From contig OZ024740.1 in NCBI GenBank assembly GCA_964016885.1, positions 307,830,001 through 307,894,000 on the forward strand: a stretch of 64,000 nucleotides of DNA, in the 5' to 3' direction. Each line of letters opens with the position of its first letter. Position 1 is the stretch's first letter. The DNA comes from Eledone cirrhosa. Lineage: Eukaryota. The position numbers and the translations under genes are program-made. Shown here piece by piece: positions 10,503 to 57,577 of the stretch. The notes below the pieces were generated by a model that was not told the DNA's origin, searched no databases, and saw only the letters and a list, made by a program, of their open reading frames with translations.

Positions 10503-10790
10503 ACTTCGACAGAATTACAAAACAGCGTTATGTAGAATCCATACTTATCGTAGAAGATATGGAAAGGAGAATAGCAAATTGAAAAATGAAAAATTTGATT
10601 TGGGGACTGACTGTAAAGAGACTGTTGTATTATGTAAATACAACACTTTTTACAGATAGTCCCCAAGTCAGTTTTTCATTTTTCACTTTTCAGTTTTTCA
10701 ACTTGCTATTCTTATTTCCCTATCTTTTACGATAAGTATTGGTTCTACGTAACCCTCTTTTGTAATTCTGTCAAAGTTACCTGATGAGAC
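10503..10790 (+). mobile_element. degenerate fold-back element with hammerhead-core remnant
   Basis: Imperfect ~275-bp palindrome 10503-10777 followed by CTGATGAG at 10781. Confidence 0.55.
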
Positions 10791-13144: not shown

Positions 13145-13533
13145 GCCTCTCAGGTCTCGAATAATTGACCCCCTCTCCCCAACTTATTAATTTTTCAGAT
13201 TTTTCCCACCCTCCACTTCCCACTCTTATCCTCCTGGCTTATTAAATTTTGCTAATCTATCTCTGGTGAAATGTTATTTTAAGTGGTAGCATTCCTGTGA
13301 CAATTTTCTTTTTACATAAAAAAACAGTATACATGACAAATAAATTACATTACAAGAATTCCTCTGTCATAAAATAAATAGGATGGGTTGGGATCTCAAA
13401 ATGTAAACTAAATGACTAATTCTGGTTTTTAAAAAAACATCAACAGAATCAACCTAGATAAATTACCGATTTTTAAAACCCCCATGCTTATTCCAACTCC
13501 CTCTTCCCCCTATTATTTGGGATCAGTGGGTAC
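13145..13533. mobile_element. non-autonomous TIR element (MITE)
   Basis: Ends CTCTCAGGTCTCGAATAAT / ATTATTTGGGATCAGTGG; related pieces at ~11300-11395 and, reversed, ~33480-33586. Confidence 0.5.
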
Positions 13534-13751
13534 ATTTTGGTTTACATACATGCATTTCATGATGACATCAGCACTAAGAAGGTTGTGTCATTGACACAGC
13601 TAAAGAGTCCCCTCAACACTAGTTTGACTGGCTTTCTATGGCTGGATGCCCTTCCTATCACTAACCACTTTACAGAATGTACTGGTTGCTTTTATCATGT
13701 AGATATGCCAATATATAAACACACACATGCATACACTATATATATATATAG

Positions 13752-14006
13752 CAAAGGAGGTGTGGTAAGGAACCAGGTGGACCATAACGCACCAGAGTAC
13801 TCAATACTTAGGGTAGTAGAGTGGGTAATAGTTTGCAATGGAATGATATGGACCCCAGTCCCTATCATCTCATTTCTACAGCTGAGTAAACTGGAGCAAT
13901 GTGAAATAAAGTGTCTTGCTCAAAGAAACAACACATCACCCGGTCTGAGAATTGAACTCACAACCTTTCAATTGCAAGGCCAATGCTCTAACCACTAACC
14001 CATGTG

Positions 14007-14009
<3 letters not shown>
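13752..14009 (-). mobile_element. family A SINE carrying the 3' tail of the 57371 fold-back element
   Basis: tRNA head + CORE (13832-14009) joined to an 80-bp tail (13752-13831) that matches 57371-57450 at 75/80 positions; (TA)n on both sides. Confidence 0.8.
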
Positions 14010-14100
<91 letters not shown>

Positions 14101-14134
14101 GATGATGATGATGATATATATATATATATATATA

Positions 14135-14492
14135 TGGAGGCACATGGGTTAGTGGCCTTGCAATTGAAAGGTTGTGAGTTCAATTCTTCAATTCTGTTTT
14201 TGTGCCTCTCCTTTGTTCTGTCCTATGCCAACAAAGAAAAGAATCCCCAGTCACTGAAGAGGTCACAGAATGTGTGACGAAAGAACTTTGACAATATATG
14301 AACAACCATCCTGTTGTGGAACCAACCAACCGGAAATTTATAAATTCTTAAATTTATAAATTTAATTTATAATAAATTGGAGTGAAAGCAACTGATGCGT
14401 GTGTTTCTTATTGGCAACATGACCCTCCCAAAGCATAACAATATCGGTTTCAACACACGTTTTCAGATAAAGAATCTTGCTAAACAAATTTC
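14135..14492 (+). mobile_element. family A SINE head fused to a Penelope-like pLTR remnant
   Basis: GGAGGCACATGGGTTAGTGG...GAGTTCAATTCT (14135-14188) is followed by sequence homologous to the 51770-52213 element, including its hammerhead and tail. Confidence 0.7.
14249..14293 (+). ncRNA. minimal type I hammerhead ribozyme motif
   Basis: AGTCA-CTGAAGA-GGTCACA gaatg TGTGAC-GAAA-G aa CTT-TGAC. Confidence 0.7.
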
Positions 14493-15160: not shown

Positions 15161-15368
15161 GAAACATTGCTTCATTTTTACATATCTAAGCATTAGTAAA
15201 ATAACTAATAATTTCAAAAGTAATTTTTCAATTCCAATTGTTATGAACAGCAAAACATTAATAATAATTTTGTTCTAAGAAATATATATACATTTCTGTG
15301 TGTGTAATATATATATATATACACACACAGAAATATATATACATTTCTGTGTGTGTAATATATATATA

Positions 15369-16990
15369 CAGTGCCCCGCAAAAGTTTACAACACATTAGG
15401 AAAAATGCGGTTTTAGGTATTTTTAATAAAGTTAGGGTAATGAAAATTTAACTACTGATAGAACATATAATGAGGTATTTAATGATACAATCATATTTTT
15501 TTTAAAGTAACAAAGAAATAACTCATGAAGAAAAATCAATATTTTTATAACTCAAAAATTTACAACACATTTTATATTTATCGCTTTTTTTCAAGAAAAT
15601 TCTTAAATTTTCAGATTTAAAATTCAGTAGAATGTTCTAGATTAGGTTTAAGGTAACTTCTAAGGACTATTAAAAACATTACGTCATTATTTGTCTGACA
15701 ACCATCCTGTAAACATTGACAACCATCCTGTAAACATTGACAATATGGGGAAAAATAAACTGATTGACCAAGACCTCCGTAAACGCATTGTAGACCTTCA
15801 TACAAATGGTGTTGGTTATAGAAAGATATCTTGTCAGTTAAATGTGCCATTGAGTTCAGTTGGTACTATAATTCGTCACTGGAAATCTCATCATTCCATC
15901 TGTCCTCTAATTAGTTCTGGTCGTCCTAGAAAGATAACGGAACGTGCAGCTCGGTTATTGATGAGAAAGAACCCCTGATGGCAACGAACCCCGGTGTACT
16001 CTTTAAAATCTTCAGGATGACCTAGAAGAAAGTGGAGTAAAAGTGAGCACAGATACAATTAGTCGTTCACTACGTCGATATAATATCTCCTCGAGGTCTC
16101 CAAGGAAAACACCACTTCTTACGAGGAAACACGTTCTTCGTCGATTAAACTTTGCAAATGATCTCATCAAACCTGCGTCATTTTGGGAAGACGTACTTTA
16201 GTCGGACGAAACAAAAATTGAACTTTTTGGTCGAAATGCTGTGGCAAAAGTCTGGAGAAAGTAAAGTACTGAATATTCGCCGAAGAATACTATTCCAACT
16301 GTAACATTTGGAGGTGGATTAATCATGGTCTGGGGTTGCTTTAGTGCCACAGGTGTAGGAAATATTGAAATAATAGAAGGAAGAATGGGTGGCGCTTATT
16401 ATAGAGGTATTTTGCAAAGGAATTTATATCAAAGTGCACATTCTCTCAGCTTAAAGCCAGGTTGGTTTTTTTCAACAAGATAACGATCCAAAGCATACTG
16501 CAAAGCTAACACAATCTTGGTTAAGTACGAATGGAATAAATGTTCTAAAATGGCCAAGTCAGTCTCCAGATCTTAACCCGATCGAAAATTTGTGGAGAGA
16601 ACTGAAACTCAGAATTCAAAAAAGGAAACCCCAAAATATCCCTGAACTAAAGAAAATTTGTTGTGAAGAATAGAAAAATATTAGCCAAGAAACATGCAAG
16701 AAGTTTGTAGGAGGCTACTCCAAACGCCTACAGGCTATAATTAGCAACAAAAGTTACGCTACGAAATATTAAGAGATGATTTAATAAATGTGTTGTAAAC
16801 TTTTGCGTTATAAAAATATTGATTTTTCTTAATGAGTTATTTCCTTGTTATTTTTTTAAAAAATATGATTGTATCATTAAATGCCTCATTATATGTTCTA
16901 TCAGTAGTTAAATTTTCATTACCCTAACTTTATTAAAAATACCTAAAACCACACTTTTCCTAATGTGTTGTAAACTTTTGCGGGGCACTG
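15369..16990 (+). mobile_element. full-length Tc1 DNA transposon with IR/DR-type long TIRs
   Basis: TA-CAGTGCCCCGCAAAAGTTTACAACACATT ... AATGTGTTGTAAACTTTTGCGGGGCACTG-TA; ~205-bp TIRs, each with outer and inner AAAA(G/A)TTTACAACACATT direct repeats. Confidence 0.95.
15745..16772 (+). pseudogene. Tc1 DD34E transposase, disrupted
   Basis: MGKNKLIDQDLRKRIVDLH...SGRPRK; SDETKIELF; FQQDNDPKH-...[15 protein letters not shown] with 34 residues between D and E; ends ATKY*. Has several stops and frameshifts. Confidence 0.9.
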
Positions 16991-17038
16991 TATATATATA
17001 TATACACACACAGAAATATATATACATTTCTGTGTGTG

Positions 17039-17089
<51 letters not shown>

Positions 17090-19230: not shown

Positions 19231-19423
19231 TATATTATAAAGAGACAGGACCTGACAGCTGTGCTCTTGTCGTTTCAACAGCTAGTTCCAGATTGTAACT
19301 AGCTGTTGAAATGGCAAGAACGCAGGTCCGACTCTTTATAATATAGCCATACTCTACAACCACAAGTATGAAGTACTCTGTTGAGTAATGGTCTAACTAG
19401 TTTTAAACTGGTTCTATCCTGAT
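19231..19423 (+). mobile_element. fold-back element (Penelope-like pLTR remnant)
   Basis: Inverted arms 19231-19287 / 19297-19345, then a tail ACTCTACAACCACAAGTATGAAGTACTCTGTTGAGTAATGGTC similar to the 57371 tail. Confidence 0.65.
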
Positions 19424-23160: not shown

Positions 23161-23432
23161 AAATAAATATACACGGGTGTGTATGATTGTGTATAGAAGA
23201 TTGTACTAATAAAAGGAATTCCAACTTTGTCTGATTTATTCGTTTTATTTACAATCCTTTAAAATTTATAATGGTATTAGAATGAAATAATATGGTAGAA
23301 TATTAAATGTTAAGTGTTAATTGAACACTTAATATTTAATATTCTACCATACTATTTCATTCTAATACCATTATAAATTTTAAAGGATTGTAAATAAAAC
23401 GAATAAATCAGACAAAGTTGGAATTCCTTTTA

Positions 23433-23435
<3 letters not shown>
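23161..23435 (-). mobile_element. fold-back element in (TA)n
   Basis: Near-perfect palindrome 23207-23435 (~112-bp arms) with a unique 46-bp tail on the left; no hammerhead core seen. Confidence 0.7.
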
Positions 23436-23474
<39 letters not shown>

Positions 23475-25569: not shown

Positions 25570-26652
25570 AATAGGCATGGGTGATGATCACTGGGTGAAG
25601 AAGTGCTAGGTGAGGTCATTGGAAGGAAGCTGCAGTACAGGAAAATCAAGAAAATCCAGGACATAGGAGATTAGAACTTAACTTAGAATGCTGAACCTCA
25701 CAGAGGAGGAGATGAAGGGGCATTATGAGAGGAGGGAGGCTGTGCTGGAAATAATACATCCAACCACACTTAAAGTGGTCATATAGGTGTCACAACAAAA
25801 AGCACCCAGCCCACACTGTAAAGTGGTCGTATAGGTGTCACAACAAAAAGCACCCAGCACATACTGTAAGGTGGTCATATAGGTGTCACAACAAAAAGCA
25901 CCCAGCCCACACTGTAAAGTGGTCGTATAGGTGTCACAACAAAAAGCACCCAGCACATACTGTAAGGTGGTCATATAGGTGTCACAACAAAAAGCACCCA
26001 GCCCACACTGTAAAGTGGTCGTATAGGTGTCACAACAAAAAGCACCCAGCACATACTGTAAGGTGGTCATATAGGTGTCACAACAAAAAGCACCCAGCCC
26101 ACACAGTGAAGTGGTCGTATAGGTGTCACAACAAAAAGCACCCAGCCCACACTGTAAAGTGGTCGTATAGGTGTCACAACAAAAAGCACCCAGCACATAC
26201 TGTAAGGTGGTCATATAGGTGTCACAGCAAAAAGCACCCAGCCCACACTGTAAATGTGGTTGTGTAGGTGTCACAACAAAAAGCACCTAGCACACACTGT
26301 AAATGTGGTTGTGTAGGTGTCACAACAAAAAGCACCTAGCACACACTGTAAATGTGGTTGTGTAGGTGTCACAACAAAAAGCACCCAGCCCACACTGTAA
26401 AGTGGTTGTGTAGGAGTCACAACAAAAAGCACCCAGCCCACACTGTAAAGTGGTTGTGTAGGAGTCACAACAAAAAGCACCCAGCCCACACTGTAAATGT
26501 GGTTGGCGTTAGGAAGGGCCTCCAGCAGTAGAAATCTAGCCAGTAACAGTTCTATATGAGCAAGACACAGTCACCTGATTCAACTTTCCTTAGATGGGAC
26601 AACCCATCCTAGCATGGAAAGTGGACATTAAACGATGTTGATGATGATGATG
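25570..26652 (+). mobile_element. old RTE 3' end whose UTR holds an expanded minisatellite
   Basis: Decayed C-terminal coding (MGDDHWVKKC...), then the repeat array, then TTAGGAAGGGC...GGACATTAAACG(ATG)n. Confidence 0.7.
25763..26500. repeat. 48-bp minisatellite, ~15 units, partly in alternating A/B 96-bp dimers
   Basis: Unit ACACTGTAAAGTGGTCGTATAGGTGTCACAACAAAAAGCACCCAGC(A/C)C. Confidence 0.95.
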
Positions 26653-27278: not shown

Positions 27279-27362
<84 letters not shown>

Positions 27363-27389
27363 TCAAAAGATGGTTAAAGGAGTTCAATA

Positions 27390-27460
27390 TATTTTATTAT
27401 GCGCATTTCAAAAACAAACATCATCAAACAATAATATTTGTGTTTTCATCAGATAAAACA
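27390..27460 (-). ncRNA. type I hammerhead ribozyme (mirror copy)
   Basis: Exact reverse complement of 27581-27651. Confidence 0.75.
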
Positions 27461-27580
27461 GGAGAACATGATATGAAGGCTAAAAAAACACTTGTTGATA
27501 GTGCAGTTTTAAATCAACATATGTTGATTTAAAACTGCACTATCAACAAGTGTTTTTTTAGCCTTCATATCATGTTCTCC

Positions 27581-27651
27581 TGTTTTATCTGATGAAAACA
27601 CAAATATTATTGTTTGATGATGTTTGTTTTTGAAATGCGCATAATAAAATA
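27581..27651 (+). ncRNA. type I hammerhead ribozyme, apparently intact
   Basis: Stem I TGTTTTAT/ATAAAATA; core CTGATGA; 16-bp stem II AAACACAAATATTATT/GATGATGTTTGTTTTT; GAAA; stem III T-GCGC-A; predicted AUA cleavage after 27643. Confidence 0.8.
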
Positions 27652-27795
27652 TATTGAACTCCTTTAACCATCTTTTGATCTTATATTATGCATACTCCAG
27701 TCCCACAAACTGTAGAGTGCTTCTTATCCGATATCTGCATTGCTTTATTGTACTACAATAAAACTCACCTCCTACATATATATATATATATATAT

Positions 27796-30531
27796 GTAAC
27801 ACTAACTTCAAAAAACGTGACAATCACCTGATCACCTATAGATCGGGGTAGATTATATCCTTACCAGGTAGATTATATCCTTACCAGAAGACGTGACAGA
27901 GTGTCTGTTGTAAACACTAAATCCCTCCCCCATGAAGAATGCACTTCCCAACATAGACTGATAATTAGCGACCTAATAGTCAGGACGAGACGTACTAGAC
28001 AACAGAAGAGGACTATCCTCAGGAGAAAAATATGGAAGCTAAAGGACCCCACAGCCAGAAATAAATTTAAAAGCATACTACTTGATGCTTTCGACAGTAA
28101 GGAAGAGGTAAGCAGACGAAAGAAAGTTCAAGCATGTTCTACAACGCGAGGACCAAAAACGTGAGGTGTTCAGGATTGCTAGGCAATGTGTCAAGGAAAA
28201 CCGTGATATTGTCGGGGAGAAGTGTGTACTTAATGATGACGGCGTACTTGCCATCACCGATGCTGATAGGAAGGTAGCTTGGAAGTGTCACTATGAAATG
28301 CTACTAAATGAGGAGAATAAATGGGAGAAAGACAGTCTCCCCCACATCGACCCAATAGAGGGACCAGCAGTGTTAGTCGAGGGTAGTATAATAAGTAAGG
28401 CAATCAAGGATATGAAGACGGGTAAGGCGGCTGGGCCTTCGGAAATAGTTGCTGAGATGCTGAAGGCATCTGGTACGGTGGGACACACCATGGTCACCCG
28501 GATAGTTAACCAAGTCGTACAGAATGGGGTTGTTCCGAAGGACTGGCGTAGCAGCATCATCGTTAACTGTTATAAGGGTAAAGGAGATGCCCTAGATAGG
28601 AGTAACTATAGAGGCATTAAATTAATCGACCAGGTCATGATAGTCACGGAAAAAGTAATAGCGCAACTAATCAGAGAGAGAATTGATCTAGATGAAATGC
28701 AGTTCGGGTTTGTGTCAGACAAAAGTACCACAGACGCTCTTTTCATTGTACGACAACTACAGGAGCAGTACCTAGCTAAAAGTAAACCCCTCTACTTAGC
28801 TTTTGTCGACTTGGAGAAAGCCTTCGACAGAGTCCCCCGTTCCATTATCTGGTGGGCTCTTAGAAAACTAGGTGTTGACGAATGGCTTGTGAGAGCTATA
28901 CAAGCCATGTATAAAGAAACAATCAGCAAGGTTAGAATTAACAACGAATATAGTGAAGAGTTTAGCGTAAAAGTTGGCGTCCATCAGGACTCTGTTCTCA
29001 GCCCCTTACTATTTATTATTGCCCTTCAGGCTATAACAGAGGAGTTCAAGACCGGCTGCCCATGGGAACTCCTATACGCAGATGACCTAACACTCATAGC
29101 TGAATCAATGGCCGAGCTAGAGAAGAAATTCCAAACATGGAAGCACGGCCTAGAATCAAAAGGCCTTAACATTAACCTGGCTAAGACCAAAGTTCTAGTT
29201 TGTAGGAAAGAAAATAATGCGGCGGTCCCTTCCGGGAAGTGGGCATGCTCAGTGTGTAGGAAAGGCGTAGGTAGAAACTCCATTTTGTGTCCCAAATGCA
29301 AAGTATGGGTACATAAAAGATGTAGTGGGATCACAGGTAAGTTAACTAAGAACATAGATTTTACATGTGGCCGGTGCTCTGGTGCAATAAGTAGCAGCAA
29401 GTGCCCAGAGAATACTAGCTCATTCCATTGCACAGATGGTTCTATAGAAATAGTGGACAGCTTCCGTTACCTGGGTGACAAAATCAGCAGTGGGGGAGGG
29501 TGCTCTGAAAGTACAGTAGCTAGAGTCAGAACTGGATGGAAAAAGTTCAGAGAGCTTATACCACTATTAGCCGCTAAAGGGTTCTCCCTAAAAATGAAAG
29601 GCAGGTTGTATGATGCCTGCATACGAACAGCAATGTTGCATGGCAGTGAGACCTGGGCATTGTGTGCAGAGGATATACGCAGACTAGAGAGGAACGAAGT
29701 TTGCATGCTCCGCTGGATGTGTAATAGTAATATACGTGAACGGCAAAGCATAAACGAACTAAGGAAAAAATTAGAAATAAGAGGGATTAGATGTTGTTTA
29801 CTCGAGAGAAGGCTACGTTGGTATGGTCACGTAATGCGCATGAAAGACGACTGCTGTATAACAAAGTGCAGGGCAATAAAGATAGACGGTAGCCACGGAA
29901 TAGGCAGACCCAGAAAAACCTGGGACGAGCTGATAAATTCCGACCTCACACACTTACACCTCTCCAAGACAATGTCACTGGACCGAGACCTTTGGCGCTA
30001 CTCAGTAATAGAGAAGACCCGCCTTACCTAAATACAAAGTAAAACCTACTACAGTCAGTAGGCATCTCTAACAAAATACACCCCCATCCCACCACCCCAC
30101 CCCATCCACACCGCCCCTTTCAATGTAAAGCTATGTTGGTGCCACAACATCCAGGCCGAAACAAATGAGATCGTGTCGGTGTCACGACAAAAAACACACA
30201 GTCCACGCTGTAATGTGGCCGTGTAGGCAACATGGTAAAAACCTCCCAGCCCCACACCGTAAATGTGGTTGGTGTTAGGAAGGGCATCCAGCTGTAGAAA
30301 ACCCGCCAGACAGTCCACGCTGTAATGTGGCTGTGTAGGCAACACGGTAAAAACCTCCCAGCCCCACACTGTAAATGTGGTTGGTGTTAGGAAGGGCATC
30401 CAGCTGTAGAAAATCCGCCAGACAGTCCTATGCGAGCAAGACAATCACTCTTGCCTCAAGTGGGAAAACCCTCGTCCAAACCCATGCAAGCGTGGAACAC
30501 GGACGTTAAACGTTGATGATGATGATGATGA

Positions 30532-30535
<4 letters not shown>
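27796..30535 (+). mobile_element. RTE LINE copy A, 5'-truncated
   Basis: Highly similar to 53288-56140; internal deletion near 28110; 20-bp duplication near 27850-27887; (GAT)n tail; in (TA)n. Confidence 0.95.
28166..30031 (+). pseudogene. RTE reverse transcriptase with PHD-type finger (endonuclease missing)
   Basis: NYRGIKLI, QFGF, FVDLEKAFDRV, VHQDSVLSP (QG mutated to QD), YADD, C4HC3 finger, YLG, LRWYGHV, GRPRKTW. Confidence 0.9.
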
Positions 30536-30557
<22 letters not shown>

Positions 30558-30564
<7 letters not shown>

Positions 30565-31295
30565 TTATATATTAATATATATGATAAACACAAAACGTGT
30601 TTGTATTGTAACAGACAAAGTTAGCTAGCAATGAAATAAACTAATTAAAGTGAATACAATTTGTCTGTCTCGATATAAGTCAATAAAGACAAGCTTATAT
30701 TGGCAAAAGCTGTGATTCCTGGAAAAATTTAAATTTCAAAATCCAAACCCGCTCCGTAGATGAATTTGAACTTCGAAACCCAAATATGGGTGTTATTTCT
30801 AGCACCAGGAATGCGGGATTGCTAGTTAGGCTGGCTACACCACATGTAATCAGACCTGCAAAATTTTTGAAGGTGGAATGTACTAATTTTACTGGATTCC
30901 TGTTGTTAAGCACAGAAGATTTGGATATTTCACTTTTTATTTCTAATCCATTTCGATTCTCTTTATTTTTCAATTCATGTACCATCGTTGCGAAACATAT
31001 TTGGGTTTTGAAGTTCAAATTCATCTACGGAGCGGGTTTGGATTTTGAAATTTAAATTTGTCCAGGAATCACGGCTTTTGCCAATATAAGCTTGTCTTTA
31101 TTGACTTATATCGAGACAGACAAATTGTATTCACTTTAATTAGTTTATTTCATTGCTAGCTAACTTTGTCTGTTACAATACAAACACGTTTTGTGTTTAT
31201 CATATATATTAATATATAACTTATATTTCACTGCTCAGAAATGCCTCTTTCTTTGAGCTGATTAATTGTAAACGACTAAGAGTTTAATCTCTAAA
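30558..31295 (+). mobile_element. fold-back element with ~230-bp arms and ~207-bp spacer
   Basis: 30561-30788 is inverted at 30996-31223; unique tail to ~31295; (TA)n on both sides. Confidence 0.75.
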
Positions 31296-37477: not shown

Positions 37478-39644
37478 GTACTATAATATATGCTAGTGTA
37501 CTACATAGTAACTATAATATATGCTAGTGTACTACATAGTAACTATAATATATGCTAGTGTACTACATAGTAACTATAATATATGCTAGTGTACTACATA
37601 GTAACTATAAGATATGCTAGTGTACTACATAGTAACTATAATATATGCTAGTGTACTACACAGTAACTATAATATATGCTAGTGTACTACATAGTAACTA
37701 TAATATATGCTAGTGTACTGTATAGTAACTATAATATATGCTAGTGTACTACATAGTAACTATAAGATATGCTAGTGTACTACATAGTAACTATAATATA
37801 TGCTAGTGTACTACATAGTAACTATAATATATGCTAGTGTACTACATAGTAACTATAAGAAATGCTAGTGTACTACATAGTAACTATAATATATGCTAGT
37901 GTACTACATAGTAACTATAATATATGCTAGTGTACTACATAGTAACTATAAGATATGCTAGTGTACTGTATAGTAACTATAATATATGCTAGTGTACTAC
38001 ATAGTAACTATAATATATGCTAGTGTACTACATAGTAACTATAAGATATGCTAGTGTACTGTATAGTAACTATAATATATGCTAGTGTACTGTATAGTAA
38101 CTATAATATATGCTAGTGTACTATATAGTAACTATAATATATGCTAGTGTACTGTATAGTAACTATAATATATGCTAGTGTACTACATAGTAACTATAAG
38201 ATATGCTAGTGTACTACATAGTAACTATAATATATGCTAGTGTACTACATAGTAACTATAATATATGCTAGTGTACTACATAGTAACTATAAGATATGCT
38301 AGTGTATTACATAGTAACTATAATATATGCTAGTGTACTGTATAGTAACTATAATATATGCTAGTGTACTGTATAGTAACTATAATATATGCTAGTGTAC
38401 TGTATAGTAACTATAATATATGCTAGTGTACTACATAGTAACTATAATATATGCTAGTGTACTATATATTAACTATAATATATGCTAGTGTACTGTATAG
38501 TAACTATAATATATGCTAGTGTACTACATAGTAACTATAATATATGCTAGTGTACTATATAGTAACTATAAGATATGCTAGTGTACTACATAGTAACTAT
38601 AATATATGCTAGTGTACTACATAGTAACTATAATATATGCTAGTGTACTATATTGTAACTATAAAATATGCTAGTGTACTACATAGTAACTATAATATAT
38701 GCTAGTGTACTGTATAGTAACTATAATATATGCTAGTGTACTATATTGTAACTATAATATATGCTATTGTACTACATAGTAACTATAATATATGCTAGTG
38801 TACTATATTGTAACTATAATATATGCTAGTGTACTACATAGTAACTATAATATATGCTAGTGTACTGTATAGTAACTATAATATATGCTAGTGTACTATA
38901 TTGTAACTATAAAATATGCTAGTGTACTACATAGTAACTATAATATATGCTAGTGTACTGTATAGTAACTATAATATATGCTAGTGTACTATATTGTAAC
39001 TATAATATATGCTAGTGTACTACATAGTAACTATAATATATGCTAGTGTAGTACATAGTAACTATAATATATGCTAGTGTACTACATAGTAACTATAATA
39101 TATGCTAGTGTACTATATAGTAACTATAATATATGCTAGTGTACTATATAGTAACTATAATATATGCTAGTGTACTATATAGTAACTATAATATATGCTA
39201 GTGTACTACATAGTAACTATAATATATGCTAGTGTACTACATAGTAACTATAAGATATGCTAGTGTACTATATTGTAACTATAATATATGCTAGTGAACT
39301 GTATAGTAACTATAATATATGCTAGTGTACTATATTGTAACTATAATATATGCTAGTGTACTGTATAGTAACTATAATATATGCTAGTGTACTATATTGT
39401 AACTATAATATATGCTAGTGAACTGTATAGTAACTATAATATATGCTAGTGTACTACATAGTAACTATAATATATGCTAGTGTACTACATAGTAACTATA
39501 ATATATGCTAGTGTACTACATAGTAACTATAATATATGCTAGTGTACTACATAGTAACTATAATATATGCTAGTGTACTACATAGTAACTATAATATATG
39601 CTAGTGTACTATATAGTAACTATAATATATGCTAGTGTACTATA

Positions 39645-39820
39645 TCTATATATCTAAAACAGAGAATGTCTGTCTGTCTGATTCCTTACAACTCAAGAAC
39701 CACCCAACGGATTGTTTTCAAACTTTACACATTTAATACTTATGGTCGTGTGAGTGTTTTGAGCAAAAGAAATTTCAAATTTCCAATGCCCTAGGGACCG
39801 CATTAGGTGCCGAATGTCGT
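39645..39820 (+). mobile_element. Helitron-like 5' fragment in the satellite (copy 1)
   Basis: A|TCTATATATCTAAAACAGAGAATGTCTGTCTGTCTG start; identical to 42635-42810. Confidence 0.55.
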
Positions 39821-42634
39821 GTATAGTAACTATAAAATATGCTAGTGTAATTAGCATATTTAATATGCATATTTAAATATGCATAGTAACTATAATATAT
39901 GCTAGTGTACTATATAGTAACTATAATATATGCTAGTGTACTGTATAGTAACTATAATATATGCTAGTGTACTACATAGTAACTATAAAATATGCTAGTG
40001 TACTATATATTAACTATAATATATGCTAGTGTACTACATAGTAACTATAATATATGCTAGTGTACTACATAGTAACTATAATATATGCTAGTGTACTACA
40101 TAGTAACTATAATATATGCTAGTGTACTACATAGTAACTATAATATATGCTAGTGTACTACATAGTAACTATAATATATGCTAGTGCACTACATAGTAAC
40201 TATAAGATATGCTAGTGTACTACATAGTAACTATAATATATGCTAGTGTACTATATTGTAACTATAATATATGCTAGTGTACTACATAGTAACTATAATA
40301 TATGCTAGTGTACTGTATAGTAAATATAATATATGCTAGTGTACTACATAGTAACTATAATATATGCTAGTGTACTACATAGTAACTATAATATATGCTA
40401 GTGTACTACATAGTAACTATAATATATGCTAGTGTACTACATAGTAACTATAATATATGCTAGTGTACTGTATAGCAACTATAATATATGCTAGTGTACT
40501 ACATAGTAACTATAATATATGCTAGTGTACTACATAGTAACTATAATATATGCTAGTGTACTATATATTAACTATAATATATGCTAGTGTACTGTATAGT
40601 AACTATAATATATGCTAGTGTACTACATAGTAACTATAATATATGCTAGTGTACTGTATAGTAACTATAATATATGCTAGTGTACTACATAGTAACTATA
40701 ATATATGCTAGTGTACTTACTATATTGTAACTATAAAATATGCTAGTGTACTGCATAGTAACTATAATATATGCTAGTGTACTGTATAGTAACTATAATA
40801 TATGCTAGTGTACTACATAGTAACTATAAAATATGCTAGTGTACTGTATAGTAACTATAATATATGCTAGTGTACTATATAGTAACTATAATATATGATA
40901 GTGTACTATATAGTAACTATAATATATGATAGTGTACTATATAGTAACTATAATATATGCTAGTGTACTATATTGTAACGATAATATATGCTAGTTTACT
41001 ACATAGTAACTATACTATATGCTAGTGTACTGTATAGTAACTATAATATATGCTAGTGTACTATATAGTAACTATAAAATATGCTAGTGTACTACATAGT
41101 AACTATGATATATGCTAGTGTACTATATTGTAACTATAAAATATGCTAGTGTACTGTATAGTAACTATAATATATGCTAGTGTACTATATAGTAACTATA
41201 ATATATGCTAGTGTACTGTATAGTAACTATAATATATGCTAGTGTACTATATAGTAACTATAATATATGCTAGTGTACTGTATAGTAACTATAATATATG
41301 CTAGTGTACTATATTGTCACTATAACATATGCTAGTGTACTACATAGTGACTATAATATATGCTAGTGTACTGTATAGTAACTATAATATATGCTAGTGT
41401 ACTGTATAGTAACTATAATATATGCTAGTGTACTATATAGTAACTATAATATATGCTAGTGTACTATATAGTAACAATAATATATGCTAGTGTACTATAT
41501 AGTAACTATATGATATGCTAGTGTACTATATAGTAACTATAATATATGCTAGTGTATTATATATTAACTATAATATATGCTAGTGTACTATATAGTAACT
41601 ATAATATATGCTAGTGTACTGTATATTAACTATAATATATGCTAGTGTACTATATAGTAACTATAATATATGCTAGTGTACTATATAGTAACTATAAGAT
41701 ATGATAGTGTATATAATATATGCTAGTGTACTATATAGTAATTATAATGTATGCTAGTGTACTGTATAGTAACTATAATATATGCTAGTGTACTATATAG
41801 TAACTATAATATATGCTAGTGTACTACATAGTAACTATAAGATATGCTAGTGTACTACATAGTAACTATAATATATGCTAGTGTACTACATAGTGACTAT
41901 AATATATGCTAGTGTACTGTATAGTAACTATAATATATGCTAGTGTACTGTATAGTAACTATAATATATGCTAGTGTACTATATAGTAACTATAATATAT
42001 GCTAGTGTACTATATAGTAACAATAATATATGCTAGTGTACTATATAGTAACTATATGATATGCTAGTGTACTATATAGTAACTATAATATATGCTAGTG
42101 TATTATATATTAACTATAATATATGCTAGTGTACTATATAGTAACTATAATATATGCTAGTGTACTGTATAGTAACTATAATATATGCTAGTGTACTGTA
42201 TAGTAACTATAATATATGCTAGTGTACTACATAGTAACTATAAGATATGCTAGTGTACTACATAGTAACTATAATATATGCTAGTGTACTACATAGTAAC
42301 TATAATATATGCTAGTGTACTACATAGTAACTATAATATATGCTAGTGTACTACATAGTAACTATAATATATGCTAGTGTACTACATAGTAACTATAATA
42401 TATGCTAGTGAACTGTATAGTAACTATAATATATGCTAGTGTACTACATAGTAACTATAATATAAGCTAGTGTACTACATAGTAACTATAATATATGCTA
42501 GTGTAGTACATAGTAACTATAATATATGCTAGTGTACTACATAGTAACTATAATATATGCTAGTGTACTATATAGTAACTATAATATATGCTAGTGTACT
42601 ATATAGTAACTATAATATATGCTAGTGTACTATA

Positions 42635-42810
42635 TCTATATATCTAAAACAGAGAATGTCTGTCTGTCTGATTCCTTACAACTCAAGAACCACCCAACGG
42701 ATTGTTTTCAAACTTTACACATTTAATACTTATGGTCGTGTGAGTGTTTTGAGCAAAAGAAATTTCAAATTTCCAATGCCCTAGGGACCGCATTAGGTGC
42801 CGAATGTCGT
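42635..42810 (+). mobile_element. Helitron-like 5' fragment in the satellite (copy 2)
   Basis: Identical to 39645-39820, offset 2990 bp. Confidence 0.55.
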
Positions 42811-43506
42811 GTATAGTAACTATAAAATATGCTAGTGTAATTAGCATATTTAATATGCATATTTAAATATGCATAGTAACTATAATATATGCTAGTGTAC
42901 TATATAGTAACTATAATATATGCCAGTGTACTATATAGTAACTATAAAATATGCTAGTGTACTACATAGTAACTATAATATATGCTAGTGTACTACATAG
43001 TAACTATAATATATGCTAGTGTACTACATAGTAACTATAATATATGCTAGTGTACTACATAGTAACTATAATATATGCTAGTGTACTACATAGTAACTAT
43101 AATATATGCTAGTGTACTACATAGTAACTATAATATATGCTAGTGTACTATATAGTAACTATAATATATGCTAGTGTACTGTATAGTAACTATAATATAT
43201 GCTAGTGTACTACATAGTAACTATAAAATATGCTAGTGTACTATATATTAACTATAATATATGCTAGTGTACTACATAGTAACTATAATATATGCTAGTG
43301 TACTACATAGTAACTATAATATATGCTAGTGTACTACATAGTAACTATAATATATGCTAGTGTACTATATAGTAACTATAATATATGCTAGTGTACTGCA
43401 TAGTAACTATAATATATCCTAGTGTACTACATGGTAACTATAATATATGCGAGTGTACTACATAGTAACTATAAAATATGCTAGTGAACTATATAGTAAC
43501 TATAAT

Positions 43507-43596
43507 TGTTTCTACTTTTGGCACAAGGCCAGCAATTATCCCAGTACATTACTGGTACTTTATTTTATCGACCTTGTAAGGATGAAAGGCAAAGTT
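43507..43596 (-). mobile_element. 5'-truncated SINE family B in the satellite
   Basis: 3' ~90 bp of family B, flanked by duplicated actatatagtaactataat. Confidence 0.8.
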
Positions 43597-44849
43597 ATAC
43601 TATATAGTAACTATAATATATGCTAGTGTACTACATAGTAAGTATATTATATGCTAGTGTACTATATAGTAACTATAATATATGCTAGTGTATTATATAT
43701 TAACTATAATATATGCTAGTGTACTACATAGTAACTATAATATATGCTAGTGTTCTACATAGTAACTATAATATATGCTAGTGTACTATATGTATATTAA
43801 CTATAATATATGCTAGTGTACTGTATATTAAATATAATATATGCTAGTGTACTATATAGTAACTATAATATATGCTGGTGTACTATATATTAACTATAAT
43901 ATATGCTAGTGTACTATATAGTAACTATAACATATGCTAGTGTACTATATAGTAACAATAATATATGCTAGTGTACTACATAGCAACTATAATATATGCT
44001 AGTGTACTGTATATTAAATATAATATATGCTAGTGTACTACATAGTAACTATAATATATGCTAGTGTACTGTATAGTAACTATAATATATGCTAGTGTAT
44101 TATATATTAACTATAATATATGCTAGTGTACTACGTAGTAACTATAATATATGCTAGTGTACTATATGTATATTAACTATAATATATGCTAGTGTACTGT
44201 ATATTAAATATAATATATGCTAGTGTACTACATAGCAACTATAATATATGCTAGTGTACTGTATAGTAACTATAATATATGCTAGTGTACTATATATTAA
44301 CTATAATATATGCTAGTGTACTACATAGTAACTATAATATATGCTAGTGTACTATATTGTAACTATAATATATTCTAGTGTACTATATATTAACTATAAT
44401 ATATGCTAGTGTACTATATAGTAACTATAATATATGCTAGTGTACTATATATTAACTATAATATATGCTAGTGTACTATATAGTAACTATAAAATATGCT
44501 AATATTGTAACTATACTATAGTGTACTATAGTAAATGACTTGTTATATAAATGGTAGCAAGTTAGATTGTTTTTGTTAGAGAGATTTGAGAGTAGGAGAG
44601 TGAAAAAGAAAAGAAAATGTTCGCTTATTGTGATGTTACCAAATAATAGTCTCTGTTGTTGTATAATGTTGATAAGCTGAAGTACTTAATGTTACAAATA
44701 TTGTATGAAAAATAAAACTGTTGTTGTGTTTGATTCTCCTGTATTTGTTGATGATGGTGTGGTGGTGGAGTAAATGAGGGGTGGGGACGCAGGCTGGTAT
44801 TGGTTGGCAAAATAATGCAACTGCCAGCACTCAGTAGTGGATCTGAGTT

Positions 44850-49290: not shown

Positions 49291-50162
49291 CATCAACTGC
49301 CATAACATGTCAATCAACTGCCATAACATGCTTTTATACATATACACTAAAATTTAGTTTTATCTTATATATGATAGCAACCATACCTGGTCTTATTATC
49401 TAATATATATAAACTATATACTAATTTGAATTCACTATTCTTGTATTTTAGATTTTCAAAATATACTGTATAGTATTCAATTTGTACAAGAATGTGGTTC
49501 ACTCAAAATTCTCACAATATTAGCCAACTAGAAGATTGTTCAAGTTGAGCTTTGGAAAAATGTGGTGGAAAATAAAAAATGATCGCATATAAAGTACAAA
49601 AAAATTTTTTTTTTATTCTTCCACTTTTTTTCTTGCTTGGAGAACATCCTTTTTTAAAATTTGTATTTATTTATTTATTTGTGTATTTTATTAATGTACA
49701 AATCTCCATCATTACTCTACATAAATTAAGTATTTTCTAATCACTAGCTTTTTCGAATGTCTATTACAGTGCTTGAAGGTATACAATAGTTTTTCTGTCT
49801 TGGGCTTAAAAAGAACTAATTTTTGAGTGTCATAGCCTAAGACTATCTATCTCCTTGAAAATATGTGCCTCTATGAAAAATGTCAGCTACTTAGGAAAAA
49901 AGCTGTAGCCGACAATTTGTGACATTCTTACACACACACACACGCATATCAAATGATGGTAGTTAAGACAGGATTAAATCACCATAATTGCTCATTGCAT
50001 TATATACATTTCTGTTACATGGTTACTCATGTGACTTCATCAGATTCTTATGCAATCATTGGTGCAGTTATGCAATCATTGTTATATGCTGGTGGCCATG
50101 CACATCCACCCAGTAGTGAAGCAGCCATAGCATACCACAATGATTGCATAACTACACCTATG

Positions 50163-50226
50163 ATTGCATAAGAATCTGATGAAGTCACATGAATAACCAT
50201 GTAACAGAAATATATATAATGTAATA
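50163..50226 (+). ncRNA. hammerhead ribozyme motif (mirror copy on minus strand ~49995-50056)
   Basis: CTGATGA-AGTCACATG aataac CATGTAACA-GAAA-TATATATA-ATGTAAT, with upstream ATTGCAT for stem I. Confidence 0.6.
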
Positions 50227-50269
50227 AGCAATTATAATGATTTAATCCCATCTTAACTACCATTATTTG

Positions 50270-51725: not shown

Positions 51726-51769
<44 letters not shown>

Positions 51770-51771
<2 letters not shown>

Positions 51772-52213
51772 TGTTATACTTTGGGAGGGTCATGTTGCCA
51801 ATAAGAAACACACGCACCAGTTGCTTTCACTTCAATTTATTATATATTTATAAATTTATAAATTTACAAATTTATAAATTTCTAGTTGGTTGGTTGGTTC
51901 CACAACCAGATAGTTGTTTATATATAGTCATAGTTCTTTCATCACACACTCTGTGACCTCTTCAGTGACTGGGGATTCCTTTCTTTGTTTCTGTGCCTCT
52001 CCTTTGTTCTGTCCTACGCCATTTTGTTTCTGTGTGTGTGTTGTGTGCTCAGTCTGCGCATGCGCCACATTTATAAATATATAATAAATTGAAGTGAAAG
52101 CAACTGGTGCGTGTGTTTCTTATTGGCAACATGATCCTCCCAAAGTATAACAATATCGGTTTCAACACACGATTTCAGATAAAGAATCTTGCTAAACAAA
52201 TTCAGAAACGAAA
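51770..52213 (+). mobile_element. fold-back element (family shared with 14192-14492)
   Basis: ~86-bp inverted arms 51770-51855 / 52069-52154, tail ATCGGTTTCAACACACG..., (TA)n flanks. Confidence 0.75.
51926..51970 (-). ncRNA. minimal type I hammerhead ribozyme
   Basis: AGTCA-CTGAAGA-GGTCACA gagtg TGTGAT-GAAA-G aa CTA-TGACT; perfect 5-bp stem I, CUA cleavage triplet. Confidence 0.75.
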
Positions 52214-52846: not shown

Positions 52847-53237
52847 AGAGAAGACCCGCCTTACCTAAATACAAAGTAAAACCTACTACAGTCAGTAGGC
52901 ACCTCTAACAAAATACACCCCGTCCCACTACCCCCACCCCATCCACACTGCCCCTTTCAATGTAAAGTTATGTTGGTACCACAACATCCAGGCCGAAACA
53001 AATGAGGTCGTGTAGGTGTCACGACAAAAAAACACACAGTCCATGCTGTAATGTGGCTGTGTAGGTAACACGGTAAAAACCTCCCAGTTCCACACTGTAA
53101 ATGTGGTTGGTGTTAGGAAGGGCATCCAGCCATAGAAAACCCGCCAGACAGTCCTATGCAAGCAAGACAACCACTCTTGACTCAAGTGGGAAAACTCCCG
53201 TCCAAACCCATGCAAGCGTGGAATATGGACGTTAAAC

Positions 53238-53277
<40 letters not shown>
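52847..53277 (+). mobile_element. RTE 3' UTR fragment, tail-to-tail with the full-length copy
   Basis: Matches copy A 30009-30535; (GAT)n tail. Confidence 0.9.
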
Positions 53278-53279
<2 letters not shown>

Positions 53280-53287
53280 TATATATA

Positions 53288-56200
53288 TCATCATCATCAT
53301 CATCATCAACGTTTAACGTCCGTGTTCCACGCTTGCATGGGTTTGGACGGGGGTAGTCCCACTTGAGGCAAGAGTGATTGTCTTGCTCGCATAGGACTGT
53401 CTGGCAGGTTTTCTACAGTTGGATGCCCTTCCTAACACCAACCACATTTACAGTGTGGGTCTGGGAGGTTTTTACCGTGTTGCCTACACGGCCACATTAC
53501 AGCGTGGACTGTGTGTTTTTTTGTCGTGACACCTACACGATCTCATTTGTTTCGGCCTGGATGGCGCGGCACCAACATAACTTTACATAGAACGGGGTGG
53601 TGTGGATGGGGTGGGGGTGGTGGCGGGACGGGGTGTAGTTTGTTAGAGATGCCTACTGGCAAGGCGGGTCTTCTCTGTTACTGAGTACCGCCAAAGGTCA
53701 CGGTCCAGTGACATTGTCTTGGAGAGGTGTAAGTGTGTGAGGTCGGAGTTTATCAGCTCATCCCATGTTTTTCTAGGTCTGCCTATTCCGTGGCTACCGT
53801 CTATCTTTATTGCCCTGCACTTTGTAATACAGCTATCGACTTTCATGCGCATCACGTGTCCATACCAACGCAGCCTTCTCTCGAGTAAACAACATCTGAT
53901 CCCTCTTATCTCTAATTTTTTCCTTAGTTCGTTTATGCTTTGCCGTTCACGTATATTACTGTTACACATCCAGCGGAGCATGCAAGCTTCGTTCCTCTCT
54001 AGTCTGCGTATATCCTCTGCACACAATGCCCAGGTCTCACTACCATGCAACATTGCTGTTCGTATGCAGGCATCGTACAACCTGCCTTTCATTTTTAGGG
54101 AGAACCCTTTAGCAGCTAATAGTGGTATAAGCTCTCTGAACTTTTTCCAACCAGTTCTGACTCTAGCTACAGTACTTTCAGAGCACCCTCCCCCACTGCT
54201 GATTTTATCGCCCAGGTAACGGAAGCTGTCCACTATTTCTATAGAACCCTCTGCGCAATTGAAAGAGCTAGTATTTTGTGGGCACTTGCTGCTACTTATT
54301 GCACCAGAACACCGGCCACATGTAAAGTCTATGTTCTTAGTTAGCTTACCTGTGATCCCACTACATCTTTTATGCACCCATACTTTGCATTTAGGACATA
54401 AGATGGAGTTTCTACCTACGCCTTTCCTACATACCGAGCACGACCATTTCCCAGAAGGGACCGCCGCCTTGTTTTCTTTCCTACAAACTAGAACTTTGGT
54501 CTTAGCCAGGTTAATTTTAAGTCCTTTTGACTCTAGGCCGTGCTTCCATGTTTGGAATTTCTTCTCTAGCTCGGCCATTGATTCCGCTATGAGTGTCAGG
54601 TCGTCTGCGTATAGGAGTTCCCATGGGCAGCCTGTCTTGAACTCCTCTGTTATAGCCTGAAGGGCAATAATAAATAGTAGGGGGCTGAGAACAGAGCCCT
54701 GATGGACGCCAACTTTTACGCTAAACTCTTCACTATATTCGTTGTTAATTCTAACCTTGCTGACTGTTTCTTTATACATGGCTTGTATAGCCCTCACAAG
54801 CCATTCGTCAACGCCTAGTTTTCTAAGAGCCCACCAGATAATGGAGCGGGGGACTCTGTCGAAGGCTTTCTCCAGGTCGACAAAAGCTAAGTAGAGGGGT
54901 TTACCTTTAGCTAGGTACTTCTCCTGTAGTTGTCGTACTATAAAAAGAGCGTCTGTGGTGCTTTTGCCTGACACAAACCCGAACTGCATTTCATCTAGAT
55001 CAATTCTCTCTCTGATTAGTTGCGCTATTACTTTTTCCGTGACCTTCATGACCTGGTCGATTAATTTAATGCCTCTATAGTTACTCCTATCTAGGGCGTC
55101 TCCTTTACCCTTATAACAGTTAACGATGATGCTGCTATGCCAGTCCTTCGGAACAACCCCATTCTGTACGACTTGGTTAACTATGCGGGTGACCATGGTG
55201 TGTCCCACCGTGCCAGATGCCTTCAGCATCTCAGCAACTATTTCCGAAGGCCCAGCCGCCTTACCAGTCTTCATATCCTTGATTGCCTTACTTATTATAC
55301 TCCCCTCGACTAACACTGCTGGTCCCTCTATCGGGTCGATATGGGGGAGACTGTCTTTCTCCCATTTATTCTCCTCATTTAGTAGCCTTTCATAGTGACA
55401 CTTCCAAGCTACCTTCTTATCAGTGTCGGTGATGGCAAGTATGCCATCATCGTTAAGTACACACTTCTCCCCGACAATATCACGGTTTTCCTTGACGCAT
55501 TGCCTGGCAATCCTGAACACCTCACGTTTTTGGTCATCGCGTTGTAGAACATGCTTGAACTTTCTTTCCTCAGCTTCCCTTCTTGCTAAGTACACTTCTC
55601 TCCTAGCTTCCCTCCTGGCCACTTGATAGTCTACTCTACTTCCCCCATCCCGCCATACTTTCCAAGCCTGCTTTTTGGCCTTAATTGACCCCTCCACCCT
55701 ATTGTTCCACCACCATGTTACTCTCCTCCTGCCTACAGGCCTGCTCCAGCCACAGACTTCGTCTGTCGCCAACAGCAGGTTTGCTTTCAGAAATTTCCAC
55801 TGTCCCTCTATATTGTCCGATTCTAGATGCTCTTCCTTACTGTCGAAAGCATCAAGTAATATGCTTTGAAATTTATTTCTGGCTGTGGGGTCCTTTAGTT
55901 TCCATATTTTCCTCCTGAGGATAGTCCTCTTCTGCTGTCGGGTACGTCTCGTCCTGACTATGAGGTCGCTAATTATCAGTCTATGTTGGGAGGTGCATTC
56001 TTCATGGGGGAGGGATTTAGTGTTTACAACAGACACTCTGTCACGTCTTCTGGTAAGGATATAATCTACCTGGCTTGTGTGTTCCCCGGATCTATAGGTA
56101 ATCAGGTGATTGTCACGTTTTTTGAAGTTAGTGTTACAGATAGTTAGGTTATTTGCATCACAGTATTCCAGAATTCTGGAGCCTTCCTCATTTCTAGTAC

Positions 56201-57343
56201 CAAACCCATAGCCTCCATGGATTTCGTCGTAGCCGTCACAATGTTGTCCAACGTGACCATTTAGGTCGCCTGCAATAATTATATAGTCACTGTCAGATAT
56301 TTGGGAGGTAGTTAGCAACAGTGTCTCATAGAATCTGTCTATAGGGCAGTCCGGATTGGGGTGCGTACGCAGATATTACTGTCACCGTAGTTCTATTGAG
56401 GACAAGTCTTATTTTAATTATTCTGTCGTTCACTCTATTTACGTCTATTATCTTATCTGCCCACTTTTCTGCTACCATGATTCCTACTCCACCCAGCCCA
56501 TCGTCGTTTCCCACCCAGAAAAGCTTATAACATCGTTTTTTACCCTCAATGAATCTAGCAGACCCACCCCTCCACCTGGTCTCTTGAATACAACAAACAT
56601 CGACCTCCTTACGTTCAAGCATTTCTACAACCTCGTTAGCGCGACCCTTTAGGGTGCCTACATTTATGGTACCAACTCTGAAGTTTTGGGTTGCGTTTGG
56701 AGGGTGGGGGTGGTGGGGGGCGGGAGGAGATAGGGTTATGTTAGCCATCCGCGGACGAAACAAAGAGGAGTGCTCGCATTTTCGTCCACGAGGTGAATTT
56801 GACTTTAACTTTGGCATTTTCGCTCTGGGCGTCCAGATTTTTCTCTCCCTTCCACTCTCCAGGATTCCGCAGTCCGTCCGTCCATCCATCCATCCATCAT
56901 ATATCGAAGGCAACCGGGCAAGCGATAGTATAGGCCTCTGGCTTATGATTTGGTCCGCGTAATAATAATAATGGTGATGCGTGGGGGTGGGGGTGGGGGG
57001 CTCTGGCTTATAATAATGGTGGTGATGCGGGGGGGGGGGCTCTGGCTTATGATTGGTCCACGTATTAAGTATGGTGGCGTGTGGGGGCGGGAGGGAGGGG
57101 TGTGGGGTAGCTAGCTGGAAGGTTATGAATGTTTAACAAGCGATTTAACAAAAAGCAAAACTGCAAGATTTGTTCTGTTCAATACGACAAAAACACCGTA
57201 TTTAAACCTTAAATAGATAACAAAAAAATACAGATTTCGGATTTTGCGAAATTGGATGTTTGTTTGGACTATGTACGAAATTGAGCGTGGAAATGGAGAG
57301 AAGAATTTGTACTTTACGATTTACATGAGTCCATCATAGAAAA
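53288..57343 (-). mobile_element. near-intact full-length RTE LINE (copy B)
   Basis: 5' UTR, APE-RT ORF, 3' UTR with GTTAGGAAGGGCATCC module, (GAT)n tail, (TA)n on both sides. Confidence 0.95.
53643..56913 (-). CDS. RTE polyprotein: APE endonuclease + RT + PHD-type finger, split by one frameshift near 56340
   Basis: GTINVGTL..CIQETRW..SAYAPQ (ORF 56326..56913) continues as GDLNGHVG..SQVDYIL..SQHRL..FVDLEKAFD..HQGSVLSP..YADD..GRPRKTW (ORF 53643..56318). The true start codon is uncertain. Confidence 0.9.
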
Positions 57344-57370: not shown

Positions 57371-57577
57371 CGAAGGAAATGTGGTAAGGAACCAGATGGA
57401 CCATAACGCACCAAAGTACTCAATACTTAGGGTAGTAGAGTGGGTAATAGGAACGAGTAGGACCCCGACGGCTGAGCTCAAGCCGTTTCGACGGCTAATT
57501 CTGGACTAAATGATTTAGTCCAGAATTAGCCATCGAAACGGCTTGAGCTCAGCCGTCGGGGTCCTACTCGTTCCTAT
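57371..57577 (-). mobile_element. fold-back element in (TA)n
   Basis: 131-bp palindrome 57447-57577 (65-bp arms, one mismatch, centre 57512) plus a 76-bp tail. Confidence 0.8.

What the first reader, a model, noticed from the sequence alone, without database searches (positions are those of the whole stretch)
13752..14009. tRNA/CORE SINE ending in a Penelope-like 3' tail: candidate PLE-mobilised SINE
Seen: 13752-13831 matches 57371-57450 at 75/80 nt. The match stops where the 57447 palindrome arm begins, so only the tail module is shared, and the whole unit sits in (TA)n like the fold-back elements. Established: SINE tails mirror the 3' end of their partner retroelement. Inference: either a SINE subfamily that uses a PLE RT, which I do not know to be described, or a one-off template switch or insertion of the tail next to a SINE.
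Basis: partly seen in the sequence, partly recalled or inferred. Interest (0 to 1): 0.75.

Follow-up and report, generated by a model that had tools for sequence, protein, structure and literature searches.

The report
One-off SINE–Penelope tail chimera
The front half of a common short jumping gene (a SINE) is fused here to the tail of a Penelope-type jumping gene, but this fusion was found only once in the genome and likely arose as a local insertion accident, not as a new kind of mobile element.

Summary
The 75/80 match is real. The 80-nt piece is the optional tail of a roughly 3.1-kb Penelope-like element (PLE) with Hydra-clade motifs, not of a LINE. The junction occurs once in 3.0 Gb, against 60,846 tail matches and 38,180 SINE matches. 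Of 94 sampled SINE copies, 93 continue into a tail shared with the window's AP-endonuclease LINE. An inverted SINE head 126 nt away shares two rare mutations with this copy, so the SINE part was likely copied locally. Best reading: a PLE stub inserted into the (TA)n tract beside a resident SINE, and its 5' end was completed on that neighbour. A deletion next to an older inverted SINE pair is the main rival. No daughter copies were found. Earlier scan notes describe Hydra-clade stubs and a different tRNA-like, possibly PLE-borne family elsewhere in this genome (untested here); none matched this element by sequence. Ordinary by-product; low interest.

The parts
13737..13750 (.). (TA)7 tract at the PLE 3' end, the likely insertion target
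   Evidence: Sequence; 74 of 80 sampled tail copies end in a microsatellite
13752..13831 (-). 80-nt optional tail of a Hydra-like Penelope element (family A here), lying between the two positions where family copies end
   Evidence: 60,846 genome matches to a 32-nt motif; present twice as direct repeats around an RT + GIY-YIG ORF in 4 of 21 long loci; copies and inverted arms also end at its first bases
13832..14009 (-). 5' 178 nt of a roughly 330-nt tRNA-like SINE, cut just where its LINE-derived tail begins; rare alleles at SINE nt 11, 40 and 86
   Evidence: 38,180 genome matches; 93 of 94 sampled copies continue into the LINE-type tail; LINE homology starts about 6 nt before the joint; alleles
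14010..14135 (.). Microsatellite spacer: (TA)n, (ATG)5, (AT)n; centre of the inverted SINE pair
   Evidence: Sequence
14136..14187 (+). Inverted head of the same SINE copy with an intact 5' end, a 12-nt deletion, and truncation at about SINE nt 62; likely the remnant of the resident copy
   Evidence: Shares both rare alleles (nt 11 and nt 40) with 13832-14009
14195..14490 (+). Fragment of a second repeat family (B), joined directly to the truncated SINE head; likely another PLE end (5' inversion, hammerhead-like core near 14254-14282)
   Evidence: Matches 51769-52202 and locus L155; PLE identity inferred from sequence, no ORF sought
57371..57577 (-). Typical fold-back stub of PLE family A: inverted arm, direct arm, tail, in (TA)n
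   Evidence: 21 of 31 position-ordered tail copies are short fold-backs
53279..57132 (-). AP-endonuclease/RT LINE (RTE-like by recalled architecture) whose 3' UTR resembles the normal SINE tail
   Evidence: Pfam RVT_1 E 2.6e-32, Exo_endo_phos_2 E 1.7e-5 below its cut-off; 82% over 103 columns to the SINE tail

Best explanation
This is a single-copy fusion of the first 178 bases of an abundant SINE to the 80-base tail of a Penelope-like element, and it likely formed at this locus when a Penelope insertion into the (TA)n tract was finished by copying the neighbouring SINE backwards. Shown: the two parent families, the unique junction, and the shared rare mutations with the inverted head at 14136-14187. 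Inferred steps: (1) a normal SINE sat on the plus strand behind the (TA)n tract and had gained its private mutations; (2) the PLE endonuclease cut the tract and the RT copied the tail; (3) synthesis stopped after 80 nt and moved to the sense strand or transcript of the adjacent SINE, copying nt 178 to nt 1 before rejoining (TA)n; (4) the original SINE later lost its 3' part to a family B insertion. It is predicted to be immobile as a unit because it lacks the sequence beyond the tail end.
For: Junction unique. The nt-11 allele has 126 exact matches against 26,143 for the common allele; two of the 126 are the two heads here. The nt-40 allele accompanies it in 1 of 28 other loci and 0 of 9 further ones, so the pair is not a productive source haplotype and likely predates the duplication. 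Among 398 pairs of copies from different loci none shares two rare alleles. The plus head keeps the usual 5' end; the minus head lacks two bases of it. The tail is young (100% to another copy). The family routinely completes its 5' end on a second template: 58 of 80 sampled stubs are fold-backs. PLE capture of host DNA is described (PMC3846280, passages).
Against: No microhomology at the joint and no usable target duplication in (TA)n, so the order of events is not readable. Only 3 of 80 stubs stop exactly at the tail boundary, and in the other two (L032, L119) short microhomology suggests deletion of the direct arm. Head-to-head SINE pairs form without this tail: 16 in the genome with spacers up to 15 nt; 0 of 13 examined has a family A tail at an arm end, and 2 of 13 share rare alleles. 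Gene conversion between arms could also equalise alleles. No other case of a PLE stub carrying an inverted copy of its flank was sought systematically.
Confidence: 0.55

Rival explanations
1. An inverted SINE pair already existed; a family A stub inserted at the 3' end of the minus-strand arm and the SINE tail (and perhaps the stub's own hairpin) was deleted, either during insertion or later.
For: Head-to-head pairs are recurrent and often have one truncated arm. A full SINE followed by a PLE stub in the same direction occurs at L010, L020 and L046. Two other stubs lose their direct arm exactly at the tail boundary. The other arm here was also cut and joined to a repeat end.
Against: Both rare alleles in the overlap are shared and none is private to one arm, which fits a duplication later than the SINE insertion; no microhomology supports a later deletion.
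Confidence: 0.33
2. The PLE RT switched in trans to a SINE RNA from elsewhere, like U6/L1 or Alu/L1 chimeras, and the neighbouring head is a separate insertion.
For: Same-sense SINE 5' part plus retroelement 3' end, near-complete SINE 5' end, flanked by (TA)n; such chimeras are known for L1 (PMC11838501, passages).
Against: An unrelated neighbour would share the nt-11 allele about 0.5% of the time and nt 40 about 1 time in 37 on top.
Confidence: 0.05
3. The unit belongs to a SINE subfamily mobilised by the PLE enzyme.
For: The joint falls near module boundaries on both sides; Pol III boxes are present; non-autonomous PLE partners are known (PMC8557442 passages; 10.64898/2026.07.22.740005 passages).
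Against: One copy in 3.0 Gb. 0 of 31 position-ordered and 1 of 80 sampled tails (this one) have a SINE 5' part upstream. None of 5 SINE copies ending at nt 178 in (TA)n has the junction bases or this copy's alleles.
Confidence: 0.02
4. The junction is an assembly artefact.
For: It lies among microsatellites and inverted repeats and is single-copy.
Against: A 54-nt short-read contig in run X16 covers 13806-13859 without a mismatch at depth 4.2, while flanking repeat words stand at 25,000. It has 26 and 28 letters on the two sides, under the tool's 31-letter bar, appears in 1 of 3 runs of that sample among the listed pieces, and the sample may be the assembly's source.
Confidence: 0.03

Closest known systems
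Hydra clade of C-terminal EN+ Penelope-like elements (Craig et al. 2021, PMC8557442; passages and sections 11, 12, 15 read)
   Same: The tail's parent has RWR, DKT, CxCX5C, no CCHH inside GIY-YIG, CxxC and CxH at the EN end, (TA)n targets, inverted 5'-truncated arms and a one-sided tail.
   Different: Unit is 3,126 nt, slightly above the '<3 kb' described; tail is 80 nt rather than 30-40; the hammerhead-like core reads U3/A8 and is not found by Rfam; no tree was built.
U6/L1 and Alu/L1 chimeric insertions (PMC11838501, passages; PMC4476161, search listing only)
   Same: 5' part of a Pol III-type RNA element joined in sense to the 3' end of an autonomous retroelement, as a dead-end single insertion.
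   Different: The partner is a PLE, and the captured part likely comes from the adjacent genomic copy rather than a free RNA.
tRNA-derived SINEs with LINE-derived tails, including mollusc CORE SINEs (PMC4758252; passages and section 13 read)
   Same: The parent SINE has a tRNA-like head and a tail 82% like a LINE 3' UTR, ending in (ATG)n.
   Different: This copy has lost that tail; the CORE domain was not tested; the mollusc CORE SINEs in that section pair with L2.
Non-autonomous PLE partners: non-LTR retrozymes (10.64898/2026.07.22.740005, passages), Chlamys MRC1 (PMC8557442, passage), pLTR-framed host genes (PMC3846280, passages)
   Same: Show that PLE enzymes likely move pLTR-bearing sequences in trans.
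   Different: Retrozymes and MRC1 are multicopy, and all carry pLTR sequence; this unit is single-copy, has only the tail and no flanking pLTR pair.

Membership tests
PLE-mobilised SINE family (proposed) | Multiple independent loci with the same head-tail junction | tested here: not met
   1 match in 2,995,841,428 bases; 1 of 40 scored hits
PLE-mobilised SINE family (proposed) | Daughter copies ending at a PLE initiation point | tested here: not met
   0 of 5 SINE copies ending at nt 178 in (TA)n carry the junction bases or private alleles; exact-match search only
PLE-mobilised SINE family (proposed) | 3' end derived from a PLE | tested here: met
   Tail lies in the pLTR of RT + GIY-YIG elements
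tRNA-derived SINE (parent family) | tRNA-related head with A and B boxes | tested here: inconclusive
   Box-like motifs present; sister heads 28.1 bits versus gathering 29; no hit for this copy
tRNA-derived SINE (parent family) | Dispersed short copies with a LINE-derived tail and simple-repeat end | tested here: met
   38,180 matches; 93 of 94 sampled copies have the LINE-type tail; not met by this copy itself
CORE-SINE superfamily | Central CORE domain | not tested
   No CORE reference sequence was available from a tool; resemblance is recalled only
Penelope-like elements (EN+) | Single ORF with RT and GIY-YIG endonuclease | tested here: met
   RT fold by AlphaFold and Foldseek, including TERT at E 1.8e-4 among other RTs; weak GIY-YIG Pfam hits in 5 of 10 homologues, 1 above cut-off; 0 of 12 own ORF pieces hit Pfam at E 0.01; all sampled copies are broken
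Penelope-like elements (EN+) | pLTRs in partial tandem or inverted arrangement with an optional tail | tested here: met
   Direct repeats in 4 of 21 long loci; fold-backs in 21 of 31; tail-less ends
Hydra clade | RWK-like, DKT, CxCX5C, no CCHH, CxxC/CxH motifs; (TA)n targets | tested here: met
   Motifs read from separate natural ORF pieces against the paper's list; RWR instead of RWK
Hydra clade | Canonical hammerhead ribozyme in the pLTR | tested here: inconclusive
   Three stems pair in 97.1% of 208 cells, 1 compensatory change, not above shuffles (82 of 500); core is U3/A8; no Rfam hit
Hydra clade | Placement in the RT phylogeny | not tested
   No named reference set was at hand
Naiad/Chlamys | N-terminal endonuclease | tested here: not met
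   EN motif follows the RT
Conventional LINE as source of the tail | Tail matches a LINE 3' end | tested here: not met
   Only a 10-nt chance hit (E 0.70) to the window's two LINE copies

The most novel reading that the evidence does not exclude
The locus records a Penelope reverse transcriptase jumping from its own RNA onto a SINE template, swapping the SINE's LINE tail for a PLE tail at the module boundaries in one step: a stillborn prototype of how a PLE-dependent SINE could be born.
Probability: 0.3. Interest if true: 0.4.

Novelty: new member of a known kind. Interest (0 to 1): 0.15.

Why it matters
As it stands, little: it is one accident among about 60,000 PLE tails and 38,000 SINE copies. 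A real SINE family driven by a PLE enzyme would extend the SINE-LINE partnership rule; five searches of the held library listed no paper that by title or abstract start describes one, but this locus is not that family. Its modest value is as a footprint of how PLE insertions finish their 5' ends and as a possible example of module swapping.

Tried and rejected
Rfam scans of stubs and of the element gave only hairpin-driven miRNA-type matches below gathering. Pfam on 12 PLE ORF pieces gave nothing; a PDB sequence search gave nothing below E 0.27. Naiad was considered and rejected on domain order. The first pair count used a misregistered structure and was replaced. The first 5'-end classifier missed subfamily variants and was redone. 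Searches scored this copy as having a LINE-type tail; one search showed that the hit is an older fragment at about 13617-13693, 61 of 76 identical, too diverged to be this SINE's lost tail. The shared-allele column was off by one and was replaced. Laying contigs on 13150-14009 was swamped by repeats and showed no pre-insertion allele. RAD-seq run X19 gave no clear coverage of the joint. Runs with small word shares were not used. SINE copies ending at nt 178 (5 found) have no positional control and are not evidence of a hot spot. A genome-wide count of SINE-PLE joints at any position could not be run, so chimeras with distant junctions are bounded only by the samples. Supplements of the cited papers were not opened; Hydra reference sequences in the supplement of PMC8557442 could bear on the clade call.

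Full report
Observation. The window's 13752-13831 matches 57371-57450 at 75 of 80 bases. On the minus strand the unit reads: (TA)n, 178 nt of a SINE with A- and B-box-like motifs, the 80-nt piece, then (TA)7. The match to the 57371-57577 element stops four bases inside its palindrome arm. The CORE label was not tested.

The tail. A 32-nt tail motif has 60,846 matches (up to 2 mismatches) in the 3.0-Gb genome. Two loci continued past the tail into coding sequence. A search with that continuation and 21 longer stretches showed the tail twice in direct orientation, 3.1 to 3.9 kb apart, in 4 of 21 loci; the L091 unit is 3,126 nt. The ORF pieces, all from broken copies and read separately, carry RT motifs followed by a GIY-YIG-type motif. 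Pfam found nothing in 12 pieces, but a model of one piece has an RT fold and 5 of 10 homologues scanned give weak GIY-YIG hits, one above cut-off. The motifs RWR, DKT, CxCX5C, CxxC, CxH and the missing CCHH follow the description of the Hydra clade (PMC8557442 section 11). A hammerhead-like fold with a U3/A8 core precedes the tail; its stems pair in 97.1% of cells but covariation is not above shuffles and Rfam misses it. Family copies end either at the tail's first bases or at its last, which fits the two-start-site origin of PLE tails shown in vitro for another PLE (PMC11167929, parts 1-2 of 4 read). The tail has no real match to the window's LINE. So the tail is Penelope-like.

The SINE. A 31-nt motif ending at the joint has 38,180 matches. 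Of 94 distinct copies in my loci that reach nt 178, 93 continue into a tail that ends in (ATG)n; these loci were chosen by similarity or by neighbouring features, not at random. That tail is 82% identical over 103 columns to the 3' UTR of the window's AP-endonuclease/RT LINE. The family's usual partner is therefore likely a LINE; the RTE label is recalled from architecture, not tested.

The family test. The junction pattern has one match with up to 2 mismatches and one with a 0-11 nt gap at the joint: this locus. In two BLAST searches only the locus itself crosses the joint, 1 of 40 scored hits each; only the best candidates were scored. From the other side, 0 of 31 position-ordered tail copies and 1 of 80 sampled ones (this one; ORF-selected loci and self duplicates left out) have a SINE 5' part upstream. 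A hairpin inside the tail might let a transcript be copied from the joint; 5 SINE copies end at nt 178 in (TA)n, and none has the junction bases or this copy's alleles. A 54-nt short-read contig crosses the joint at depth 4.2; it falls under the tool's 31-letter bar and the sample may be the assembly's source, so it is supporting, not conclusive. Joints at distant positions could not be counted genome-wide.

Local origin. A second head of the same SINE lies inverted at 14136-14187, across a 126-nt microsatellite. The two heads share the alleles at nt 11 and nt 40. The nt-11 allele has 126 matches against 26,143, and nt 40 joins it in 1 of 28 and 0 of 9 other copies. None of 398 cross-locus pairs shares two rare alleles. 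One head was therefore likely copied from the other, or both from one local template. The plus head keeps the usual 5' end, has a 12-nt deletion and is joined to a second repeat family.

Mechanism. I favour (0.55) a PLE insertion into the (TA)n tract whose 5' end was completed on the adjacent SINE, giving an inverted duplicate: one event explains the joint, the inversion and the shared alleles, and the family habitually finishes on a second template (58 of 80 fold-backs). Against it, inverted SINE pairs arise without this tail (16 with short spacers; 0 of 13 examined has it; 2 of 13 share rare alleles), full SINEs often sit just upstream of stubs, and two other stubs lose their direct arm at the same boundary. 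Deletion beside an older pair is thus a serious rival (0.33). A switch to a distant SINE RNA (0.05), a family (0.02) and an artefact (0.03) are unlikely. These steps are inferred; only the parents, the uniqueness and the shared alleles are shown.

Comparison and novelty. It works like the U6/L1 and Alu/L1 chimeras (PMC11838501, passages) and like PLE captures of host DNA (PMC3846280, passages). Module exchange by template switching is a standing model for SINE evolution (PMC4758252, passages). It is not a member of any SINE family defined by a PLE tail. Searches listed no paper that by title or abstract start describes such a family; the library lacks most subscription journals. Earlier scan notes report Hydra-clade stubs, SINE snap-back palindromes and a different tRNA-like family that may ride PLEs in this genome; I had the Hydra reading before seeing them, took the tail-hairpin idea from them, and did not test the tRNA-like family. 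Verdict: real, explained, single-copy by-product; interest 0.15.

Noticed in passing
G000 genome-wide; window 57371-57577: PLE family A is mostly present as short fold-back stubs whose 5' ends cluster about 51-64 nt before the tail (41 of 80), near an initiator-like motif (recalled) and not at the predicted hammerhead cut; they may be copies of the RNA's 5' end.
   Followed up: partly
L016, L019, L033, L046: In a few fold-backs the two arms carry different subfamily variants, which suggests two RNA templates primed from both sides of a break rather than snap-back; most arms match.
   Followed up: partly
window 14195-14490 and 51769-52202; L155: A second repeat family with a canonical-looking hammerhead core, 5' inversions and (TA)n flanks; likely another PLE end.
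   Followed up: no
L154-L166, L126, L200, L201: Head-to-head and snap-back palindromes of the LINE-tailed SINE are recurrent (16 with spacers up to 15 nt), often with one truncated arm or a deletion near the centre.
   Followed up: partly
window 19231-19402: Older, diverged relative of the family A fold-back and tail (79% over 52 nt).
   Followed up: no
window 27354-27686, 23204-23438, 30558-31226, 10503-10777, 49950-50269, 15283-17077: Further palindromic or inverted-repeat inserts, several in (TA)n, with no match to family A listed.
   Followed up: no
window 27791-30543 (+) and 52893-57132 (-): Two copies of an AP-endonuclease/RT LINE with an internal PHD finger, 94% alike; the minus copy has a 909-aa open frame and an inverted duplicate of its 3' end.
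   Followed up: partly
window 25764-26503: Array of 15 copies of a 48-nt unit that also occurs in the LINE 3' UTR and the SINE tail.
   Followed up: no
window 37480-44501: 7-kb satellite of a 31-nt unit.
   Followed up: no
L091 788-930: Two similar bulged hairpins lie a few bases beyond each of the two family end points, as earlier scan notes reported.
   Followed up: partly
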